Below are positions 2,862 through 60,116 of a stretch of DNA of 64,000 nucleotides, one piece after another. A program made the translations under genes and the position numbers. The stretch comes from Squalus acanthias (taxonomy: Eukaryota). Position 1 is the first letter of the stretch, and each line of letters begins with the position of its first letter. The DNA lies in NCBI GenBank assembly GCA_030390025.1, contig CM059445.1:48236001-48300000 (forward strand). Reading direction: 5' to 3'. Under the pieces are notes generated by a model, which saw only the letters and a list, made by a program, of their open reading frames with translations, searched no databases and had not been told where the DNA came from.

Positions 2862-3002
2862 AGCAAAATACCGCGGACACTCAAAATCTGAAATAAAAAC
2901 AGAAAATGCTGGAAACACTCAGCAGGTCAGGCAGCATCTGCGGAGAGAGAAACAGATGCTGCCTGACCTGATGAGTGTTTCCAGCGTTTTCAGTTTTTAT
3001 TT
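2862..3002. mobile_element. Short palindromic family A remnant without the hammerhead core
   Basis: AAACAGAAAATGCTGGAAACACTCAGCAGGTCAGGCAGCATCTG followed by its imperfect reverse complement; homologous to 17088-17325. Confidence 0.7.
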
Positions 3003-16214: not shown

Positions 16215-17087
16215 CTGTGAGGAAGGAAAAGAGACAACTTCTCAAATATTCTCACTCCAAACTGAAAATGGTTAAAAAAAAAAGGCTATAGTTGCTTGAA
16301 TCAAATTGTACTACTACAGGAAATATATTTATAATGTTCACACCTGCCTCATTTATTTCACAAAAGCATTAAACCAATTTTTGAAATTAAAAAAATGTTA
16401 CAACAGACTTGTGAATAAAATACCACAAGACCAAAATTCTAAATCTCTCACATGACTAGGAGGTCCGTCCGTGGATCAAATCCAATGTTTGCATATATAC
16501 AACCAGTAAATGACAGGAACAAATCTTTAATTAAAAGAAATTAACCTGCGGTACCAGCTGGGAGTACATGTAACTCATTGAGTGATAATTCAATTCAGCC
16601 CATATGGAATAAACTCCATCTCTGCTGTCACACTCAATTGTCCTCTCTTTCAAATCTGGATTTTTCATGGGTTGGCTCCCAGTCACAAATTCCTAGAAAA
16701 TGCATTTGTATACAGAATAACGTCTACATACTTAAAAGGACAACATTAAAATAAAACCCTCAGTGGATAAATTTAACATCCCTGAACTTTCAAAATAGAG
16801 AACACAAAGTAATGAATTAAATTTAATATTCTACATGGTTTGCTGAAAAAAAAGTGTTCATCTAAAATACCTAATTTCTAATGAACGGAACTGAAACTCT
16901 TCAAATGTTTTATTGAAATGAGGACATTCAAGCTATTAAACACTTTCCTCTGGCCTCATATTTTAGTTTTCTGTCCCCCCCCCCCCCCAATCAGCATCAA
17001 ACATTTTGCATCAGTCACTGTAGTTTAAATGAAAAAAAATCTCCGAATATTTGGAAAATAGCAGCAGAAATGACTTTACTGTTTTGT

Positions 17088-17325
17088 ATGATAGCAAAAT
17101 ACTGCAAATGCTGGAAATCCAAAATAACAACAGAAAACGCTGGAAAAACTCAGCAGGCCAGGCAGCATCCGTGGAGAGAGAAACAGAGTTGACGTTTCAG
17201 GTCGAAGACCTTTTCGTCAGAACAAAAGTTCTGACGAAGGGTCTTCGACCTGAAACGTCAACTCTGTTTCTCTCTCCACGGATGCTGCTTGGCCTGCTGA
17301 GTTTTTCCAGCGTTTTCTGTTGTTA
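17088..17325. mobile_element. Palindromic Penelope-like element remnant, family A, with hammerhead motifs on both strands
   Basis: About 100 bp near-perfect inverted arms centred near 17225; 12 bp direct repeat TTACTGTTTTGT at 17076-17087 and 17326-17337; CTGACGA...GAAACGTC cores. Confidence 0.8.
17227..17263 (+). ncRNA. Minimal type I hammerhead ribozyme motif (mirror copy on minus strand at 17187-17223)
   Basis: AGTT-CTGACGA-A-GGGTC-TTC-GACCT-GAAAC-GTC-AACT: helix I AGTT/AACT, helix II hairpin, self-complementary ACGT helix III, GUC cleavage triplet. Confidence 0.72.
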
Positions 17326-20300
17326 TTACTGTTTTGTGGCATGTGGTAAGAGTTTGTAATGAAGATCCACTGTAATGGGATCACCTATTGAGAAAAAATA
17401 ACTGGCATTTAAAGGTTTTTAATGTTTGCTTTACAGTAGCACAATTAACTTTCTATTAGTTAAGAAAAGACTATTTGAAGAAGAAGAGAAGATTTGGGTG
17501 CTTATATTAATCCATTAACATGAACACAAATGTATGCCCAAGTCACTTTAGAAAAGAAGTTTGCACATTTTCTGATACGGGCTCAGTCCCATCATTTAGT
17601 GCCAGGCGTTCGGTTTACTATTTTTATAGAACCCTTCTGGTACGTCCTCCTGCTCAGTAACTCCCATTTCAACTCTCCCCAAAGGACATACTCCTGGACT
17701 GCAGCACCTAAGGAGAAATGTTTATACAACTTTACGAGTAGCAGTTTACAGCAGCTGCCAACACTCTCGAGTGATCTGATTGCTGAAACCTTGAATAAAC
17801 AGTTTCAAGACCAGGTAGAGTTTCTGCATTGAAATCTTTACCTGTCCAGTACCGTAACCTAGACTTAAGACTTCACACTGGCGTAAAGCGAAAGGGCTTG
17901 TCATTTCTAGTATTTTCACAAGGACAGAAATAGTCCCTCTCTCATGGCTAAGCAGTGAGATAAGATAATTATATCCAGAAATCATGTGCTGGGTTATTAG
18001 AGCTATCCTTGCCACTGCAGTTATTAACATCTCATTGGCTGTAAGATTTTATTAATAAACTTGTCAAATCATAACTTAGAAATGGACTAGACTGGACTGG
18101 TTGGGCCGAATGGCCTGTTTCTGTGCTGTATATCCGATGTACAATAAATGTCATAGTTTTCTATTATATCACAGATATGAAAAATAGCTCCATAGCTTCC
18201 ACACTAGGTCTGTGATGGTACAGTCTGACTGTACAGTCCGTTACCCCTTCCCTAAACCCGACTGTTGAACCAAACTCTGCTTCACTTGCCCATTTCTTGG
18301 GGCGGTTAATGTTGACCTGTAATTCACCTTCTGTGGGTTTCCCACTTAACCATAGTGAATGGGGGGAGAGTGAGAGGCAGGACTCCACCAGTCCACCAGT
18401 TAGTTCACTGTCTGCGAGATTGTTCGAACTATGCCCCACCCCTCATTTGCGATTAGCACAGAGCTGAGAGCAACAGGAGCCGGCAGCTGAGTGTGGAAGG
18501 AAACATCTCGGTTACTGGGCACAAGTATTGTACCAGGGCTGATCGGAGCTGGTCAGACACATCACTCACTGGCCAGTAACAGGGCTATAAATATTGACTT
18601 CCTCCTTGCTTCATTATCACACTACATGCCATGCGTTATTTACCTGCCGAACAGGATACCCGGTGCTCAAAGATTAATAATTTATTTGAGCACAACACAC
18701 AGAGAAAGACAGGCACACAGACTGAGGACATGGGGAGCTAACTGCCTGGGACATGTGACATTATTACAGCTGCAATTTCTTCTCCAAATGAGCCTTTTTT
18801 GTCAATTCCACACAAACAACTCTGTCTGTCTGTCGGTCGGTGATTTCCCCCTCCCTCTGCCGGAGCCGCTGTGAACTCCCTGTACAGATCCGTGGCGGAA
18901 ACTTGGTGAGGTGACCCCCCCCCCCCCCCCCCCGCTTTAAGGGAGCGATTCCACCACCGGAGCAAGGGGGCGGGGATTTGCAGCCTTCCCACCTCCCTGC
19001 AATAGAGCAGGTAAAAGCCCCAGCCAGCAGCAGCAGGGGGTGGGAATGGAAACATATTGCAGTCAGTGTGGGGACCGACTCCAGCCGGGCTCAGCACCAT
19101 TGACATGAACCCAGCACTCACCCATCACCACGGTTACTTGCAGTCCCACAGAACTGGTGCCAGTACGGATAATCTTTGATTGCTTTGGTAGCGACACAAA
19201 GATTTCAATTTCGCTGCACACAACGACAATTCTCAAAAGCAGAAGCCAGTTCAAATGTGTTTCCCCATGGGTTTACAATTGCCACACCTTCTCTCCTTCC
19301 TCTCTCCCTTTCCCTCCCTCATCACGAAATCGCATCTGATGATTCCTTCCCCCCCTTCCCAAACATTTTTTCCCCCTGCCTGGTTGTTCTCTGGCCCAGA
19401 GCGGTCCCACCCACCCACGTGTCCTTCCAAACAGGCGCCCTGTGCAGTCCCAGAATCAGAAGCAACTGGTCCAGTCAATGTCATCCCTGGAACACGGGGC
19501 GGCCGGGGAGTGTCAGTTTCAACGGCACTTGCACACTGCACGGTGCAAATGTGCGACTAGCATTGACCTGTGAACATTTAGCTGTCAGCCCGGGAGTGTT
19601 CGGAATAGATCACTTGTCTGAATCACTGACAAGTCCATCCCAGCGCAATGGGAGCTGCACTGACCGATAGTCACTGCATTAGTTCAAATTTAAGATGATT
19701 GCGCTCTGCACATTTTCCCAAAGCCGTTCGTTAGCCGGGTCGATACTATCAGTCATCGGGTAAAAGCTGCCTTGGACTCAGGTCCCATCCCGCATCTCCC
19801 TCTTGAACCAGGGTTCGTGGGATTCGCTGTAACTGGCCGCGTTTACACTGTCGGTGTGAAGTGGTTTGGGGACACACAGCAAGGCAACGGTGGCAGTGTC
19901 GTTCAGAATATGAAGTGTACTAACGACCCTGAGACTGTGTGACCAACTCCCCGCCCTGCAAGAGTCGGTGTCACACCGGTTTGACTCCCCATTATAAATC
20001 TGGTGGCGATTTAATAGGGGTGGTTCCAAATTATGAAGGGTTTTGACGGGAGTAGATCGGGAGAGATTTCCCACTGGCGGGAAGGTCGGCAACCAGAGGA
20101 CACAGATTGGCAAAAATTGGCAAAAAAGTCCAGGAGGGAAATTTTAAGCAGCGAGTTGTTAGAATCTGGAATGCATTGAAAGGGTGGTGGAAACTGATTC
20201 AATGGTAACTTTCAAAAGTGGATTGAAAAGGAAAACACATTTGCTGGGCTCTGGGAGAGTGGGGATTCTTGGATCGCTCTTACAAAGAGCCAGCACAGGC

Positions 20301-20365
20301 ATGGTGGGCCGAAGGGCCGCCCCCTCCTGCGCTGCAGGGTTCTGCTTCCTTCAGCCATACCTTAC

Positions 20366-21334
20366 CTGGTGGGTGAACAAGATAGCCGTGTCGAAGTGCT
20401 CGGGGTGCCGGTCGCTCGGGTGGTTGTAATCCAGCTGCCAGTTGCAGAAGTTGCGCAGAGTCAGACCGGCGTTGCTGGAGACGGCCGGCCCCTCGCCCTC
20501 GTCCTCCACCAGCAAGACCTTCACCACCACCACGTTGACCAGGTTCCTGATGCTGGGGTCCTTGTAGAGCCGAGCTGCCACCGCCAGCAGGGTGAGCAGG
20601 TAGTGCTGCAAGCCGGCTCCGTGGAACCTCGTCATGGACTCGTCGGCCACCAGCATGGTCTCGATGTAACGCGCCTCGGACACGAATCTCTTGCTTCTGG
20701 GCTGGTGGACCTGCCCTTGGCTGCTGCTGTTGTCCATCTCCTCCTGCTGCCCGCTCAAGATCTCGCTCCTGGGTTTGAAGAAGTTGGGGTGGTCGGGCGC
20801 ACGTTGGCCAGGATGGGCGCATCTCTCTGCTTCTCCCTGCGCCGCTCCCTGGTCGATCCTCCTCCGGATCAGGTGAGGGCGGATCGGGCTCTCCCCAGGG
20901 CTCACCGGCTGGATCAGGTACTCCTCCCCGTCCGTGTAAAAAGCGCCCTGGATCCCCTGGCACAGACTGACGGCCACCATCGAGCCGGGGCTGGAGTTGA
21001 CCTCTCCCGAATAGAAACACCTCCTTAGGTCGGTGTCCCCCTGGGCTTGGCCAGCCCGGGCTCGGCCAATGCGTTGGACGGTGAAAGCCGGGGCCAGGAA
21101 GCTGGAGTCGGGGACCAGCCTCAGGATAAAATTTCTGCCGAAAGCCCCGAGCTGGAAGACCAGCAGATCCGCTTGTAGCTCAGGTGCGCCTGGCGTCTCC
21201 AGGCGCCCGGCTCTGCCCTCCAATCTGATGGGAGTCACCTCGGCCACACAGGCATCGAGAGCCCCCAGAGCCACCGAACGACACGCGAGCAGGGCTGAAA
21301 CTGTGCTGAGCAGCAAGGGGATTCTGCAGAACAT
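20366..21334 (-). CDS. ADAMTS8: ADAMTS8-like coding exon 1 (signal peptide, prodomain, furin site, start of metalloprotease domain)
   Basis: ATG at 21334 (MFCRIPLLLSTVSALLAC, hydrophobic signal-like); prodomain motifs LVPDSSFLAP and CFYSGEVN; RSKR|FVSEARYIETMLVAD; ends DTAILFTHQ at a CAG|gtaag donor; 969 bp, phase 0. FVSEAR and NxGLTLRNFCNWQ resemble ADAMTS8. Confidence 0.92.
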
Positions 21335-28345: not shown

Positions 28346-28393
28346 AGATGCACTGTGCTTGTTGTTGCCTCTGTCTTGCTCTAAGTATGGAAA

Positions 28394-28838
28394 AATGTGA
28401 GAAGTCGCACAACACCAGGTTATAGTCCAACAGCTTTATTTGAAATCACAAGCTTTCGGAGCGCTGCTCCTTCGTCAGGTGACAAAGGAGCAGCGCTCCG
28501 AAAGCTTGTGATTTCAAATAAAGCTGTTGGACTATAACCTGGTGTTGTGCGACTTCTCACATTTGTCCACCCCAGTCCAACACCGGCATCTCCACATCAT
28601 AAGTATGGAAAGTCAGTCTCTATAGTTTATGATGCGGAGATGCCGGTGATTTCAAATAAAGCTGTTGGACTATAACCTGGTGTTGTGCGACTTCTCACAT
28701 TTGTCCACCCCAGTCCAACACCGGCATCTCCACATCATAAGTATGGAAAGTCAGTCTCTATAGTTTATGATGCGGAGATGCCGGTGATTTCAAATAAAGC
28801 TGTTGGACTATAACCTGGTGTTGTGCGACTTCTCACTA
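28394..28838. mobile_element. Penelope-like family B: palindromic insertion plus adjacent second insertion and 138 bp tandem duplication
   Basis: Inverted arms about 28394-28472 and 28485-28564; direct repeat TAAGTATGGAAA at 28382-28393 and 28600-28611; units restart at 28510, 28648 and 28786; direct repeat CTATAGTTTA at 28620-28629 and 28839-28848. Confidence 0.82.
28446..28482 (-). ncRNA. Minimal type I hammerhead ribozyme motif, family B
   Basis: Reverse complement reads TCAC-CTGACGA-A-GGAGC-AGC-GCTCC-GAAAG-CTT-GTGA; helix I TCAC/GTGA, palindromic AAGCTT helix III. Confidence 0.68.
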
Positions 28839-33593: not shown

Positions 33594-34690
33594 TTAGTGG
33601 CTCAGTTGGTAGCACCCTCACCTCTGAGTCAGAAGGTTGTGGGTCCGAAGTCCCACTCCAAGACACGAGCACAAAAATCTAGGCTGACACTCCGGTGCAG
33701 TACTAAGGGAGTGCTGCACTGTCGGAGTTCCTATCTTTCGAATGAGACATGTTGATGTAAAAGATTGAGAGGTCGCACAACACCAGGTTATAGTCCAACA
33801 GTTTTATTTGAAATCACAAGCTTTCGGAGCTATCGCTCCTTCCTCAGGTGAAGTAAATTGGATACAGAATCGCCAGAGCATATATAGATGGAAAAAAAAG
33901 CATGTGTACTTTACAATTGCAGACCAATAAATTAAATCATCCTGACTATCTGCCGAGGTGTGATAAAGTTAATTAAGTCAGCCAGGAAGGTACCACATCA
34001 AAAGACATAGCAAGATACAACTGAGACAATGAGGTGTAGTCGCAGGGGTTCCAACGTGTCAAAAGCTGCCGTCTGTATGTAAAACGAAAAGCTTTAAAAA
34101 AAATTTACTTTTTTACTGGGAAAATTTTTACTTTTTTACTGGGAATCACATCTGTGAACAAGCTAACGACGACTCGAGTCCGGATCACGTCATGTATCGT
34201 GACATAAACCCAAGATCCCGATTGAGACCGTCTTCATGAGTGCGGAACTTGGCTATCAGTTTCTGCTCGATGATTTTGCGTTGTCGTGTGTTTCTAAGGT
34301 TGCCTTGGAGAACGCTTACCCGCAGATCCGAGGCTGAATGTCCTTGACTGCTGAAGTGTTCCCCGACTGGGAGGTAACAATCCTGCCTGGCGATTGTTGC
34401 GCGGTGCTCGTTCATACGTTGTCTCAGTGTCTGCATGGTCCCATGGCACTATTTCGAAGAAGAGCAGGGGAGTTATCCCTGGTGTTCTGGCCAATATTTA
34501 TCCCTCAATCAACATCACTAAAACAGATTATCTGGTCATTATCACGTTGCTGCTTGTGGGAGCTTGCTGTGTGCAAATTGGCTGCCGCATTTCCTACATG
34601 ACTACACTTCAAAAAGTACTTCATTGGCTGTAACGTGCTTTGGGACGTCCGGAAGTCGTGAAAGGCGCTATATAAATGCAAGTCTTCCTT
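33594..34690 (+). mobile_element. SacSINE1/DeuSINE-like SINE interrupted by the Penelope-like element
   Basis: TGGCTCAGTTGG A-box-like head at about 33598; body homologous to the 24958 copy; 3' half 34440-34690 ends GCGCTATATAAATGCAAGTC. Confidence 0.8.
33766..34439 (-). mobile_element. 5'-truncated Penelope-like retroelement, family B (C-terminal GIY-YIG endonuclease region, 3' region with hammerhead at 33814-33851)
   Basis: ORF 34185-34436 LRQRMNEHR...VGEHF...EQKLIAKFRT...GLNRDLG matches the typical end of Penelope endonuclease domains; downstream TCAC-CTGAGGA-A-GGAGC-GATA-GCTCC-GAAAGCTT-GTGA; splits a SINE at AAAAGAT|CCCATGG. Confidence 0.85.
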
Positions 34691-43340: not shown

Positions 43341-44722
43341 GTATGTTCCTTCATCCCCTTTTCTATTGTGATTGATGACCTGTCAGTACCCATTAAGAGC
43401 ACTGAAAAGTCAGTCTCCAGTTTGGTGGTGTCTTATCAGCGTATGTTCCTTGTCTGCACAGACCTTTCCTCGCTAGAATACTGAACGATTCTACGGCCCA
43501 AGACGTGGCTGTACTGTCAGTTCCACCTGGACAGCTCAAACAACACTCCCCTTCTGCTCCATTCCCTACATCCTGCTTCATCAGAAATTTGACTTGTCAC
43601 TAAAATGCAACAAGTTTAATCTCTGTGCCATGCGACAAAATACACTCGGTGTTGCACTGCATAACCTGCTAATGTCTAATATATCACGCACTGTGGTTCC
43701 TTCTCTAATACAAGAAAATGTGTAAAGCACCCAATTTATACCATAATTTTACAATGCTTCCAAAGAAAATGTATCAGAGAGGATCTAGTGCAGCTCTTCT
43801 TATGCATATACAGTAAAAAAAATCCACTGTAATTTTAGTAATTCATAGTTATATAATATTTTGTGTCAATGCGTTATTCATTGAAGGGAAATGACTGAGT
43901 TAGGATGGGGTCATTATGCTATTGCAGCTTAAGAGGTTCTGCTTCCCATTTATTTCAATAGCTCCATATGCATCTTATTATTGTTATGGAGGATAGGTAC
44001 CAGGTACAAAAATCTTAGCAATGAGCTGGACGAAACTGGCTCTTTAATTAGCATGTCCTATTCAATGCAGGCTCATGCATTTTTGTTTTTATAGATCAAA
44101 ATTCAACATGCCAGAACAGCTCTATTTCTAGACCACTGGAGCATTGACCCTGAAACTCGTGTCTGCTCTTCTTCATTTGGACAGCTTGTGTGTTTTATCC
44201 TGTCAATCATTGACTACTAATGTCTCTTCAGGTTCACAAAACCAGTTTTTTGATGGTTTGGTTATTAATGGCACATGTTCAGTTTGGACACTTACTCAAT
44301 TAAATATATACCAGGTCAGACGAAAATAGCAACGCTAAATCAGTCTTTAACCTGATCCAATCAGATAATGTTTAAACACCGTAACAGGGTTTGTGAGAAG
44401 TGATCTAGCCAACTGAATAGAAACAAGATTGATTACATTTTTGCTCTTGATATTCAGACTCAAGTAAAATCAATCGAAATCATTAAAAAATGTTGTTTCA
44501 TTTTTTGCTCCCTTTTTTTTTCTTTTGCTCGGATACAGTTCCAAGTGTACAAGCAGCCCTCTGGCACCTCTCCACACGAGTCATTCTGAAGTAGCCTACG
44601 CAATGAGTGTCAGCAGACTATTCATTTATGGAGAGCATCACAAGATGAGCTCGATTCTGTTCTTTGATGCCCATGCAAGTGTACGGCAGGGGTCGTTGGA
44701 TAGCAAATAAGAGTGGGACCCT

Positions 44723-45005
44723 AAATAACAACAGAAAACGCTGGAAAAACTCAGCGGGCCAGGCAGCATCCGTGGAGAGAGAAACAGAGTTAACGTTTCA
44801 GGTCAAAGACCTTTCGTCAGAACTGGAAAAAAGCAGGAAATGAAATAGATTTCATTTCCTGCTTTTTTCCAGTTCTGACGAAAGGTCTTTGACCTGAAAC
44901 GTTAACTCTGTTTCTCTCTCCACGGATGCTGCCTGGCCCGCTGAGTTTTTCCTGCGTTTTCTGTTGTTATTTCGGATTTCCAGCATCCGCAGTATTTTGC
45001 TATCG
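44723..45005. mobile_element. Palindromic Penelope-like element remnant, family A, with hammerhead motifs on both strands
   Basis: About 123 bp near-perfect inverted arms centred near 44848; 15 bp direct repeat TAAGAGTGGGACCCT at 44708-44722 and 45006-45020; interrupts an older SINE. Confidence 0.82.
44871..44907 (+). ncRNA. Minimal type I hammerhead ribozyme motif (mirror copy on minus strand at 44788-44824)
   Basis: AGTT-CTGACGA-A-AGGTC-TTT-GACCT-GAAAC-GTT-AACT. Confidence 0.68.
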
Positions 45006-46265
45006 TAAGAGTGGGACCCTGCCTGATTTAATTTTCCACTCTCCGAGCCCAAAGACACTGAGGTAAATTGTACCACGACTGCTATTATTGGCAGAAGTCT
45101 GTATTCTTGCTGTGACTAGTGTTATTGGGAGATCATTGGTTTTGCAGAGCTGCAAGCTTTGTTTGTATGCACTATGATCACAGGTATTTGCATGTGCTTT
45201 TCTAGTCCTATTATGATTTAGAGGGACAGATCAACTGATACATTCCAACCTTCTATCCTGAGATAGGTTGAACCAGGTATTTCAAAACTCCAATCACCAT
45301 GGTACTGCACTTGCTTTCTGAATGTATCTCTACTTACACATGTAGCTTTCACAGCAGACATGGGTTTTGGGTGAGATGTGCATGAGTTCTGCTTCCCTTC
45401 AGCTCCAGATGTATCCTCATGTCAATATTTCTACATTTCCTGTTAACTTCTAAATTTATTTTTGACACAAAATATCAGGGAAAAATTAGAAATGCATAAT
45501 TTGTTAACCTGTTTTCAGCATTTCTGTTCTCCTCCTCCCAGACCAGACACCATTTACTTTCTCATGCTCTGTTCTGTTATTGTATACCACGGTCACTTGC
45601 CTTTCCATAACTCTTGTTTTCATGCCTTACTGGCTTTGTTCCCAGGTTTGAAGCAGCTCCACTCTGCGATTATAGGGTCCTTTCCTCTGATGCATTCAAA
45701 GCCAAGGTTCACTCTCTAAAACTTAAGAGAGCAGATGCTCTAACTATAAACTTTGTAAGAACATAGGAAGTAAAAAAAAAATGTTGTCATCCGTTTAGCT
45801 GCTGTTCAGGTCTAAGTCTTGGTTATGTTCGAATCAGGTCTTGTAAGTAGCCATGTGATGTAGTTTGCTTGCGATATACTAGAGTATAAGCAGTGTTTAC
45901 TAACCTTGTTCATGACTACATTGTCGTCTACTGAACCTCCCTAGAAAACCATGCTATTTACAGCCGGAACCACCTATTTTAGTCAAATCACCTGATTTTT
46001 GAACCATCCAGGTTGTTTGGTCATTATACATGGCCATATGCAAAGCTCAACTCAACGTGAGCAGTAATTCTTTGTGCTGAAATGGTATTAGAGGGGTTGG
46101 AGATTTAAGAGATAGTTGGGATGGAGTTTGTGACATCTTCTCAAAACTTGTAGTATAGAATCATAGATTAGTACAGCACAGAAGGAGGCCATTCGGTCCA
46201 CCGAGTCTGCAATTGGTGTGGCCAAAAGCACATTCTTTAGGCATCTAGTTCCTGCATCACTCACT

Positions 46266-59697: not shown

Positions 59698-60116
59698 ACA
59701 AAAATGAGAAGTCGCACAACACCAGGTTATAGTCCAACAGATTTATTTAAAATTACAAGCTTTCGGAGCTGTCGCCCCTTCCTCAGGTAAAGGTACAATG
59801 AGTGAATCTACAATATTTCACAGTATATAAACACAGAAACTGCAGAGATACAATCTTTCAGGGAAGGTGTCCTTACATCAAAGACACGCCAGAGCACAGC
59901 CAAGACAATGAGATGTGTCACAGGAGGTCCAACGTGTCAAATCCTGCTGTCTGCAGTTTTTTGGGGGGTTTGCTTTTTTTGTGTTTTTTTTTAAAATAAA
60001 AACTGGAAAGACAGACAATGATGTCGAGTCACGTTCTGTAGCGTGACATGAACCCGATATCCCTATTGAGGCTGGCCTCTGGGTGCGGAACTTGGCGCCG
60101 GCATCTCCGCATCATG
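59698..60116 (-). mobile_element. 5'-truncated Penelope-like element, family B, with hammerhead at 59753-59790 and a short inverted tail
   Basis: Homologous to 33766-34260 (frameshifted AKFRT...LNRDIGFMSRY end); direct repeat AGGGTAYGGTAG at 59686-59697 and 60117-60128; GCCGGCATCTCCGCATCAT tail in the opposite orientation. Confidence 0.8.

What the first reader, a model, noticed from the sequence alone, without database searches (positions are those of the whole stretch)
17088..17325. Palindromic mobile unit with back-to-back hammerhead ribozyme motifs in ADAMTS8 intron 1
Seen: a 238 bp insertion with a 12 bp direct repeat whose two arms are reverse complements. Each arm has a full minimal type I hammerhead (CUGACGA, hairpin, GAAAC-GUC, helix I GUU/AAC). 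Established: Penelope-like elements carry minimal hammerheads with a short palindromic helix III and are thought to cleave as dimers. Inference: one ribozyme is in the sense of any transcript, including the ADAMTS8 pre-mRNA, but the mirror arm could lock it in a long hairpin. That would make a self-repressed or co-transcriptionally gated ribozyme cassette and a possible dsRNA source.
Basis: partly seen in the sequence, partly recalled or inferred. Interest (0 to 1): 0.8.

Follow-up and report, generated by a model that had tools for sequence, protein, structure and literature searches.

The report
Fold-back stump of Penelope-like retrotransposon
This 238-base palindrome in a gene's intron is two short ends of a very common jumping gene joined back to back, each with that element's hammerhead-ribozyme motif; it is likely a dead by-product of one insertion, predicted to be locked in a hairpin, and likely neither a mobile unit nor a switch for the host gene.

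Summary
In detail: a 238-bp insert, a 12-bp target duplication, 97%-identical mirror arms and a minimal hammerhead motif on each strand, in intron 1 of an ADAMTS gene. Both arms are the terminal repeat (pLTR) of a Neptune/Nematis-type Penelope-like retrotransposon with intact 971-aa copies and 33,322 exact hammerhead motifs in this genome. The centre of this palindrome occurs once in the genome. Hundreds of look-alikes have other centres, and 38 of 90 sampled copies carry an inverted arm; longer examples reach 2.6 kb. One arm has the 35-nt PLE 'tail' and the other lacks it, as published for PLEs. The ribozyme fold costs about 53 kcal/mol against the hairpin, and the core is no better conserved than its flanks. 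RNA-like contigs join exon 1 to exon 2 across it. Side result: arm geometry favours two separate primings on one source element over self-priming, and 5' ends pile up at the hammerhead's 5' edge, 31 nt below a TATA-like box, not at its cleavage site. This scan reported the same kind of palindrome twice before on other DNA.

The parts
17076..17087 (.). left copy of 12-bp target-site duplication
   Evidence: 55 of 90 sampled family copies have a TSD of 10 nt or more, mode 14
17088..17223 (-). tail-bearing pLTR arm (family positions +1 to +135); also encodes the first ~43 codons of the element's ORF
   Evidence: matches the N-terminus of the intact ORF in L175
17088..17122 (-). 35-nt PLE 'tail', present on this arm only
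   Evidence: self-palindrome starts at 17123; inverted arms end at +94..+103 in 24 of 38 sampled copies
17188..17223 (-). minimal hammerhead motif in pre-mRNA sense: helix I 3 bp, one extra A after the core, predicted cleavage between 17191 and 17190
17224..17226 (.). junction of the two arms: three A not found in the parent element (the fourth A, 17227, matches family position 0)
   Evidence: the 37-nt centre is unique in the genome
17227..17325 (+). tail-less pLTR arm (family positions 0 to +98; the next two T are shared with the TSD)
17227..17263 (+). minimal hammerhead motif, antisense to the host gene: helix I 4 bp, predicted cleavage after 17259
17326..17337 (.). right copy of the 12-bp target-site duplication
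16215..20365 (-). host intron (first coding intron of an ADAMTS gene, GT..AG on the minus strand) that holds the insert
   Evidence: exon-exon joint in contigs of runs X1 and X5, two studies; edges
20366..21334 (-). first coding exon of the ADAMTS gene (named ADAMTS8 by recall only)
44720..45006 (.). second, independent head-to-head copy of the same family, with a different centre (both arms reach upstream of the hammerhead) and its own TSD TAAGAGTGGGACCC

Best explanation
The insert is two short terminal-repeat (pLTR) ends of a Penelope-like retrotransposon joined head to head, likely made once during a single insertion, likely unable to move or be transcribed on its own, and predicted to hold both hammerhead motifs inactive in a hairpin. 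Shown: the parent element is a 3.2-kb unit with the hammerhead at the start of a 971-aa RT plus GIY-YIG ORF. Head-to-head arms with one tail are a routine product of this family, and this centre is unique. Inferred mechanism: the element's protein cut both target strands 12 nt apart. One end primed reverse transcription at family position ~+135 and the other at ~+100, on RNA from the same source element. Both cDNAs ran to the RNA's 5' end at the hammerhead's 5' edge and were joined through three extra A. The putative TATA box lies 31 nt upstream of that edge and was not copied, so the stump likely has no promoter. In host pre-mRNA it would form a ~100-bp hairpin that is spliced out with the intron.
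For: Parent element: the arm continues upstream into RT and GIY-YIG sequence. A tandem array of three open ~1000-codon frames starts its ORF at the ATG inside CUG-AUG-A. Abundance: 33,322 exact motif matches and 11,185 exact tail-junction matches; controls 0. Not a family of its own: the exact centre has 1 match. 296 and 297 loci hold tight fold-backs with varied centres (first 50 loci listed in each). Of the first 90 tail-bearing copies on contig C1, 38 have an adjacent inverted arm and 8 have two back-to-back hammerhead cores like this one. The same layout occurs with 2.1-2.6-kb arms (L178, L179). Two primings: 0 of 72 head-to-head pairs (68 loci) have two tails. All 15 loci picked blind to the tail have exactly one. 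The tail-less arm reaches more than 20 nt further 5' than the tailed arm in 15 of 38 copies, the reverse in 4; a fold-back copy of the tailed cDNA cannot do that. Same source: subfamily site +39 agrees in 66 of 66 pairs (14 C/C by my count), and 51 of 81 minority bases are shared between arms against 14.7 expected. RNA 5' end: 27 of 90 direct arms and 16 of 38 inverted arms begin within a few nt of position 0, only 1 of 90 and 1 of 38 near the cleavage site. A TTTAAA-like hexamer lies at -30 to -33 in 51 of 57 arms that keep upstream sequence. Inactive fold. Published matches: inverted pLTR, 31-37-nt tail and 9-10-bp TSD (PMC3846280); two RT start sites bracketing the tail, both strands cut and extended (PMC11167929).
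Against: No cleavage or transposition assay was run. The window's two arms differ at three places, one of them site +12, which is polymorphic in the family (discordant in 4 of 54 pairs); later mutation or two templates would both explain this. Unequal arm reach could also come from fold-back followed by asymmetric deletion of the palindrome's centre. The cap signature is unproven: G precedes position 0 in 787 of 1613 junctions against 27-33% background, but of 10 G-class solo copies with a TSD only 1 has a lone extra G and 6 have the G inside the TSD. The same upstream sequence also reads as a strong 3' splice site, and an intron ends at helix I in D. virilis Penelope (PMC4209133). The 90 copies come from one contig and one exact 28-nt pattern, so they lean towards young copies.
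Confidence: 0.88

Rival explanations
1. Same origin and same dead-end status, but the mirror arm arose by self-priming: one cDNA (or an antisense RNA) folded back at a short palindrome and copied itself, as proposed for rotifer Penelope elements.
For: Arms of one insertion share alleles (66 of 66 at site +39). 20 of 38 junctions show 1-13 nt of overlap. A recurrent centre falls on the near-palindrome TCWGA. The idea is stated in the Discussion of PMC3846280.
Against: The tail-less arm is the longer one on the 5' side in 15 of 38 copies. Its outer end is fixed near +100, which matches a second RT start site (PMC11167929). Neither arm contains the other in those cases.
Confidence: 0.25
2. The short palindrome is a non-autonomous, MITE- or retrozyme-like unit that is copied as a whole.
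For: One 49-nt centre recurs among the loci listed, and zero- or one-base centres recur.
Against: This copy's centre is unique. The six fetched loci with the recurrent centre (L033, L036-L038, L041, L046) carry different subfamily alleles and arm ends. Arm lengths form a continuum up to kilobases. The upstream TATA-like box is missing. A second-generation copy would need priming through a ~100-bp hairpin.
Confidence: 0.04
3. One reading: a self-repressed or kinetically gated ribozyme cassette that cuts or regulates ADAMTS8 pre-mRNA, or feeds small-RNA or editing pathways in a locus-specific, selected way.
For: A complete core lies in pre-mRNA sense with a GUC triplet. PLE hammerheads can be activated by the element's protein (PMC11167929). 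The hairpin is long enough to be a dsRNA substrate (general knowledge).
Against: The antisense arm is transcribed first. The active fold is 53 kcal/mol uphill. The sense motif has a 3-bp helix I and an extra A. A single arm prefers a fold that pairs the core with CGUCA. A monomeric minimal hammerhead showed no cleavage in PMC4209133. The core is not conserved above flanks. The copy is 96-98% identical to family members, so it is young. Exon 1 joins exon 2 in contigs of two studies, although it is not known whether those animals carry the insertion.
Confidence: 0.03

Closest known systems
Canonical endonuclease-positive Penelope-like elements with inverted pLTR and tail (PMC3846280, passages and Discussion; PMC8557442, passages)
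   Same: Head-to-head 5'-truncated copies, a tail on one arm only (35 nt here, 31-37 nt there), a TSD around the whole unit, tandem full-length arrays, RT plus C-terminal GIY-YIG with CxxC between the motifs.
   Different: This copy is the shortest class: no ORF between the arms. The published explanation is self-priming; the arm geometry here favours two primings.
Minimal hammerheads of metazoan PLEs (PMC4209133, parts 1-2 of 4)
   Same: Conserved core, no helix III except palindromic ACGU, an unpaired base after A9, short helix I; that paper already notes pairs of motifs 100-700 bp apart on opposite strands.
   Different: Helix II is 5 bp and closed by A-U or G.U, not G-C; the two cores here are only 10 nt apart; the pre-mRNA-sense copy has an extra A.
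Poseidon element of the green anole, PAc (PMC11167929, parts 1-2 of 4)
   Same: ORF start inside the hammerhead; two RT start sites just inside the ORF bracket the tail; uncleaved RNA is the template.
   Different: PAc is of the Penelope/Poseidon clade; this family has the CX4CxxC linker of Neptune/Nematis. That paper's main text, as far as read, does not explain the inverted arms.
Non-LTR retrozymes (bioRxiv 10.64898/2026.07.22.740005, part 1 of 5 and passages)
   Same: Type I hammerhead derived from PLE pLTRs, no protein.
   Different: Retrozymes are head-to-tail tandem repeats with both motifs on one strand; this is head-to-head with one motif per strand, so no dimer can form in cis.

Membership tests
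EN+ Penelope-like element (parent family) | single ORF with RT followed by GIY-YIG endonuclease | tested here: met
   971-aa ORF in L175: RVT_1 E 2.4e-5, GIY-YIG E 6.2e-4, both under Pfam's cut-off; RVT_1 passes the cut-off on L078; DKG and YIDD motifs read
EN+ Penelope-like element (parent family) | [quoted passage not shown] | tested here: met
   VYCIRCSRCGLLYIG; feature as defined in PMC8557442
EN+ Penelope-like element (parent family) | tandem or inverted pLTRs with a 30-40-nt tail and variable TSD | tested here: met
Neptune/Nematis clades | CX2-5CxxC linker between RT and EN | tested here: met
   CKRRRCNTC in L077/L078, CTRRRCNTC in L175
Neptune clade specifically | RT phylogeny with reference elements | not tested
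   no named reference sequences were fetched
Minimal type I hammerhead of PLEs | core CUGANGA...GAAA...UH, helices I and II, palindromic 15.2-16.2, extra base after A9 | tested here: met
   the minus-strand motif has two extra bases
Minimal type I hammerhead of PLEs | G10.1-C11.1 pair closing helix II | tested here: not met
   A-U in most family copies (69 of 76) and in the minus arm; G.U in the plus arm
Minimal type I hammerhead of PLEs | self-cleavage as dimer or with protein help | not testable with these tools
   folding only
Non-LTR retrozyme | head-to-tail tandem units, each with a same-strand hammerhead | tested here: not met
   head-to-head, one motif per strand
MITE-like non-autonomous family | many copies with the same internal structure and fixed ends | tested here: not met
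   centre unique; variable centres and arm lengths

The most novel reading that the evidence does not exclude
The palindrome is a fossil of how Penelope-like elements insert. Both ends of a staggered double-strand cut prime reverse transcription on the same source RNA at two fixed sites (+100 and +135), and the two same-sense cDNAs are joined through short palindromic microhomology. The RNA itself starts at an initiator whose first four bases are hammerhead helix I, 31 nt below a TATA box supplied by the upstream tandem copy, and it is copied uncleaved. This would explain the inverted pLTRs, the one-sided tail and the mass of solo hammerheads with one mechanism, and intact copies in this genome make it testable.
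Probability: 0.45. Interest if true: 0.55.

Novelty: new member of a known kind. Interest (0 to 1): 0.22.

Why it matters
As a feature of the ADAMTS gene it matters little: it is one of hundreds to thousands of like stumps. It is a caution that perfect palindromes with a ribozyme on each strand arise routinely from Penelope-like insertion. The family-wide statistics have some value for specialists. How PLEs make inverted pLTRs and what the hammerhead does are open questions in the papers read, and this young, very abundant family gives evidence for two-ended priming and for an uncleaved template that begins at the hammerhead.

Tried and rejected
Rfam: no hammerhead family among 16 matches; the miRNA hits are generic hairpin matches below gathering scores. 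Hammerhead cleavage as the source of 5' ends: rejected, 1 of 90 direct and 1 of 38 inverted arms start within 4 nt of the site. Purifying selection on the core among copies: not seen; Fisher p = 0.09 in the opposite direction, low power, and positions near the junction may be inflated by alignment. Cap-derived G: the excess is real and is absent for starts at +1 (33 of the first 100 listed, counted by hand), but the test for a lone untemplated G was inconclusive (1 of 10; 70 loci examined, 40 of them hand-picked by that base, 28 without a TSD found, 17 with an inverted arm). Part of the excess comes from helix I microhomology between arms. A recurring spliced upstream exon: none seen by eye in the 200 junctions listed; no RNA test of splicing inside the element was obtained. 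Sequencing runs: no holder on record as RNA. The four runs laid are assembled contigs, family copies swamp the element, and they say nothing on editing, cleavage or presence of this insertion. No structure-atlas result was obtained for either protein. Literature: four searches listed no paper on this family in cartilaginous fish or on twin priming in PLEs. The library lacks most subscription papers and Repbase, and no supplements were read (those of PMC4209133 and PMC11167929 may bear on this), so absence from print is not shown.

Full report
Observation. The insert 17088-17325 sits between exact 12-bp repeats. Its arms are 97% identical over 101 columns and fold into one long hairpin, z = -28 against 200 shuffles. 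The left arm is 35 nt longer. Each strand carries CUGACGA, a 5-bp helix II, GAAAC-GUC and a short helix I. Rfam lists no hammerhead here, so the motif call rests on the descriptor in PMC4209133. The insert lies in the first coding intron (16215-20365) of a minus-strand ADAMTS gene. Contigs from two studies join the two exons at exactly these edges; those runs are only guessed to be RNA. The name ADAMTS8 is my recall, not a tool result.

What the arms are. A search of the own genome returned 40 places at 96-100% identity among the 40 candidates scored of 2029. In many of them the arm continues upstream into a pyrimidine-rich UTR and then a GIY-YIG and RT coding region. Many copies have open frames of 1004 codons. 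One locus holds three 3.2-kb units in tandem, each with a 971-aa ORF that starts at the ATG inside the hammerhead core. [quoted passage not shown] The window's longer arm translates to the N-terminus of that ORF. The motif has 33,322 exact matches in the genome and the tail junction 11,185.

Is the palindrome a unit that moves? The 37-nt centre has one match in 3.7 Gb. Two looser patterns find 296 and 297 tight fold-backs with many different centres. I took the first 90 of the 100 listed tail-bearing matches on contig C1. Of these, 38 have an adjacent inverted arm, 8 have two back-to-back cores like the window copy, and 55 have a TSD of 10 nt or more. The same layout occurs with arms of 2.1-2.6 kb. 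One centre recurs, at the near-palindrome TCWGA, but the six fetched examples differ in subfamily alleles and arm ends. The palindrome is therefore built anew at insertion. Inverted pLTRs with a one-sided tail and a TSD are described in PMC3846280 and PMC8557442, and opposite-strand motif pairs in PMC4209133.

How it likely formed. The tailed arm ends at +130 to +135 or just beyond in all 90 copies (selected by that region), and the inverted arm ends at +94 to +103 in 24 of 38. None of 72 head-to-head pairs has two tails, and the 15 loci chosen blind to the tail all have exactly one. PMC11167929 shows for an anole PLE that both target strands are cut and extended and that two RT start sites bracket the tail. 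Here the tail-less arm reaches further 5' than the tailed arm in 15 of 38 copies and the reverse holds in 4, which simple fold-back of one cDNA does not give. Yet both arms come from one source: site +39 agrees in 66 of 66 pairs, and arm-to-arm divergence is 2.0% within insertions against 4.4% between them. I infer two primings on RNA of one source element, with the cDNAs joined by microhomology (20 of 38 junctions) or a few extra bases (16 of 38). Fold-back followed by deletion at the centre is not excluded.

Where the RNA starts. 27 of 90 direct arms and 16 of 38 inverted arms begin at the hammerhead's 5' edge; one of each begins near the cleavage site. The template was thus mostly uncleaved, in line with PMC11167929. 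Position 0 lies in CCAGTTC, which fits the initiator consensus (recalled), and a TTTAAA-like hexamer lies at -30 to -33 in 51 of 57 arms with upstream sequence. G precedes position 0 in 787 of 1613 junctions against 27-33% expected, but a lone untemplated G was found in only 1 of 10 informative copies, so a cap is not shown. The same bases also form a good splice acceptor. PMC2377424 (passages) reports that the D. virilis pLTR supplies the promoter but calls it TATA-less. Both window arms start at 0 or +1 and lack the upstream box.

Can it act as a ribozyme on the host RNA? In any head-to-head palindrome the complement is transcribed before the ribozyme arm. Forcing the hammerhead fold costs 52.8 and 53.3 kcal/mol in the whole insert and 5.7 and 7.4 in single arms, where the core prefers to pair with CGUCA. 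The pre-mRNA-sense motif has only 3 bp of helix I and an extra A. A same-strand partner for a dimer is absent from the insert. A monomeric minimal hammerhead was inactive and dimers weak in PMC4209133. Across the 90 copies the core decays at least as fast as the flanks. No data bear on editing or small RNAs.

Verdict. A real but ordinary product of a known class of element. Two earlier notes of this scan, seen after my reading was set, reached the same view on other genomes; they are not independent support. The family-wide evidence for two-ended priming and for an RNA that starts at the hammerhead is the part worth a specialist's time. My four literature searches did not list it, but the library is incomplete and no supplements were read.

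Noticed in passing
window 44720-45006: Second head-to-head copy of the same family, with its own 14-bp TSD; both arms share two private variants.
   Followed up: yes
window 2862-3002: Older, ~84%-identical fold-back of a related subfamily, truncated downstream of the hammerhead; lies in another intron of the same ADAMTS gene.
   Followed up: partly
window 28388-28569, with further pieces to 28836; solo copies at 33755-33851 and 59700-59788: A second, unrelated minimal-hammerhead family (G-C closing pair, AGCU palindrome) that also forms a palindrome here; no significant match to the first family. Likely another Penelope-like family.
   Followed up: partly
L175-L176 (G000:C4:15715600-15728500): Tandem array of three 3.2-kb units with open ~1000-codon frames, ending at the tail-less site +100; the family was active recently.
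   Followed up: partly
family position 8: About half of the copies, the window's included, have CUGACGA instead of CUGAUGA, which removes the ORF's first ATG; the next in-frame ATG is 16 codons on. Whether that subfamily is autonomous is open.
   Followed up: no
L143, L190, L214: Three solo copies inserted in the same target sequence (TCTTAAAGGG), suggesting a preferred site within another repeat or later duplication.
   Followed up: no
window 20366-21334 (-) and 37372-59560 (+): Two ADAMTS genes arranged divergently; the plus-strand one resembles ADAMTS15 (recall).
   Followed up: partly
window ~18093-18141 and ~20000-20300: Other very high-copy repeats in the same intron, seen as deep cover.
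   Followed up: no
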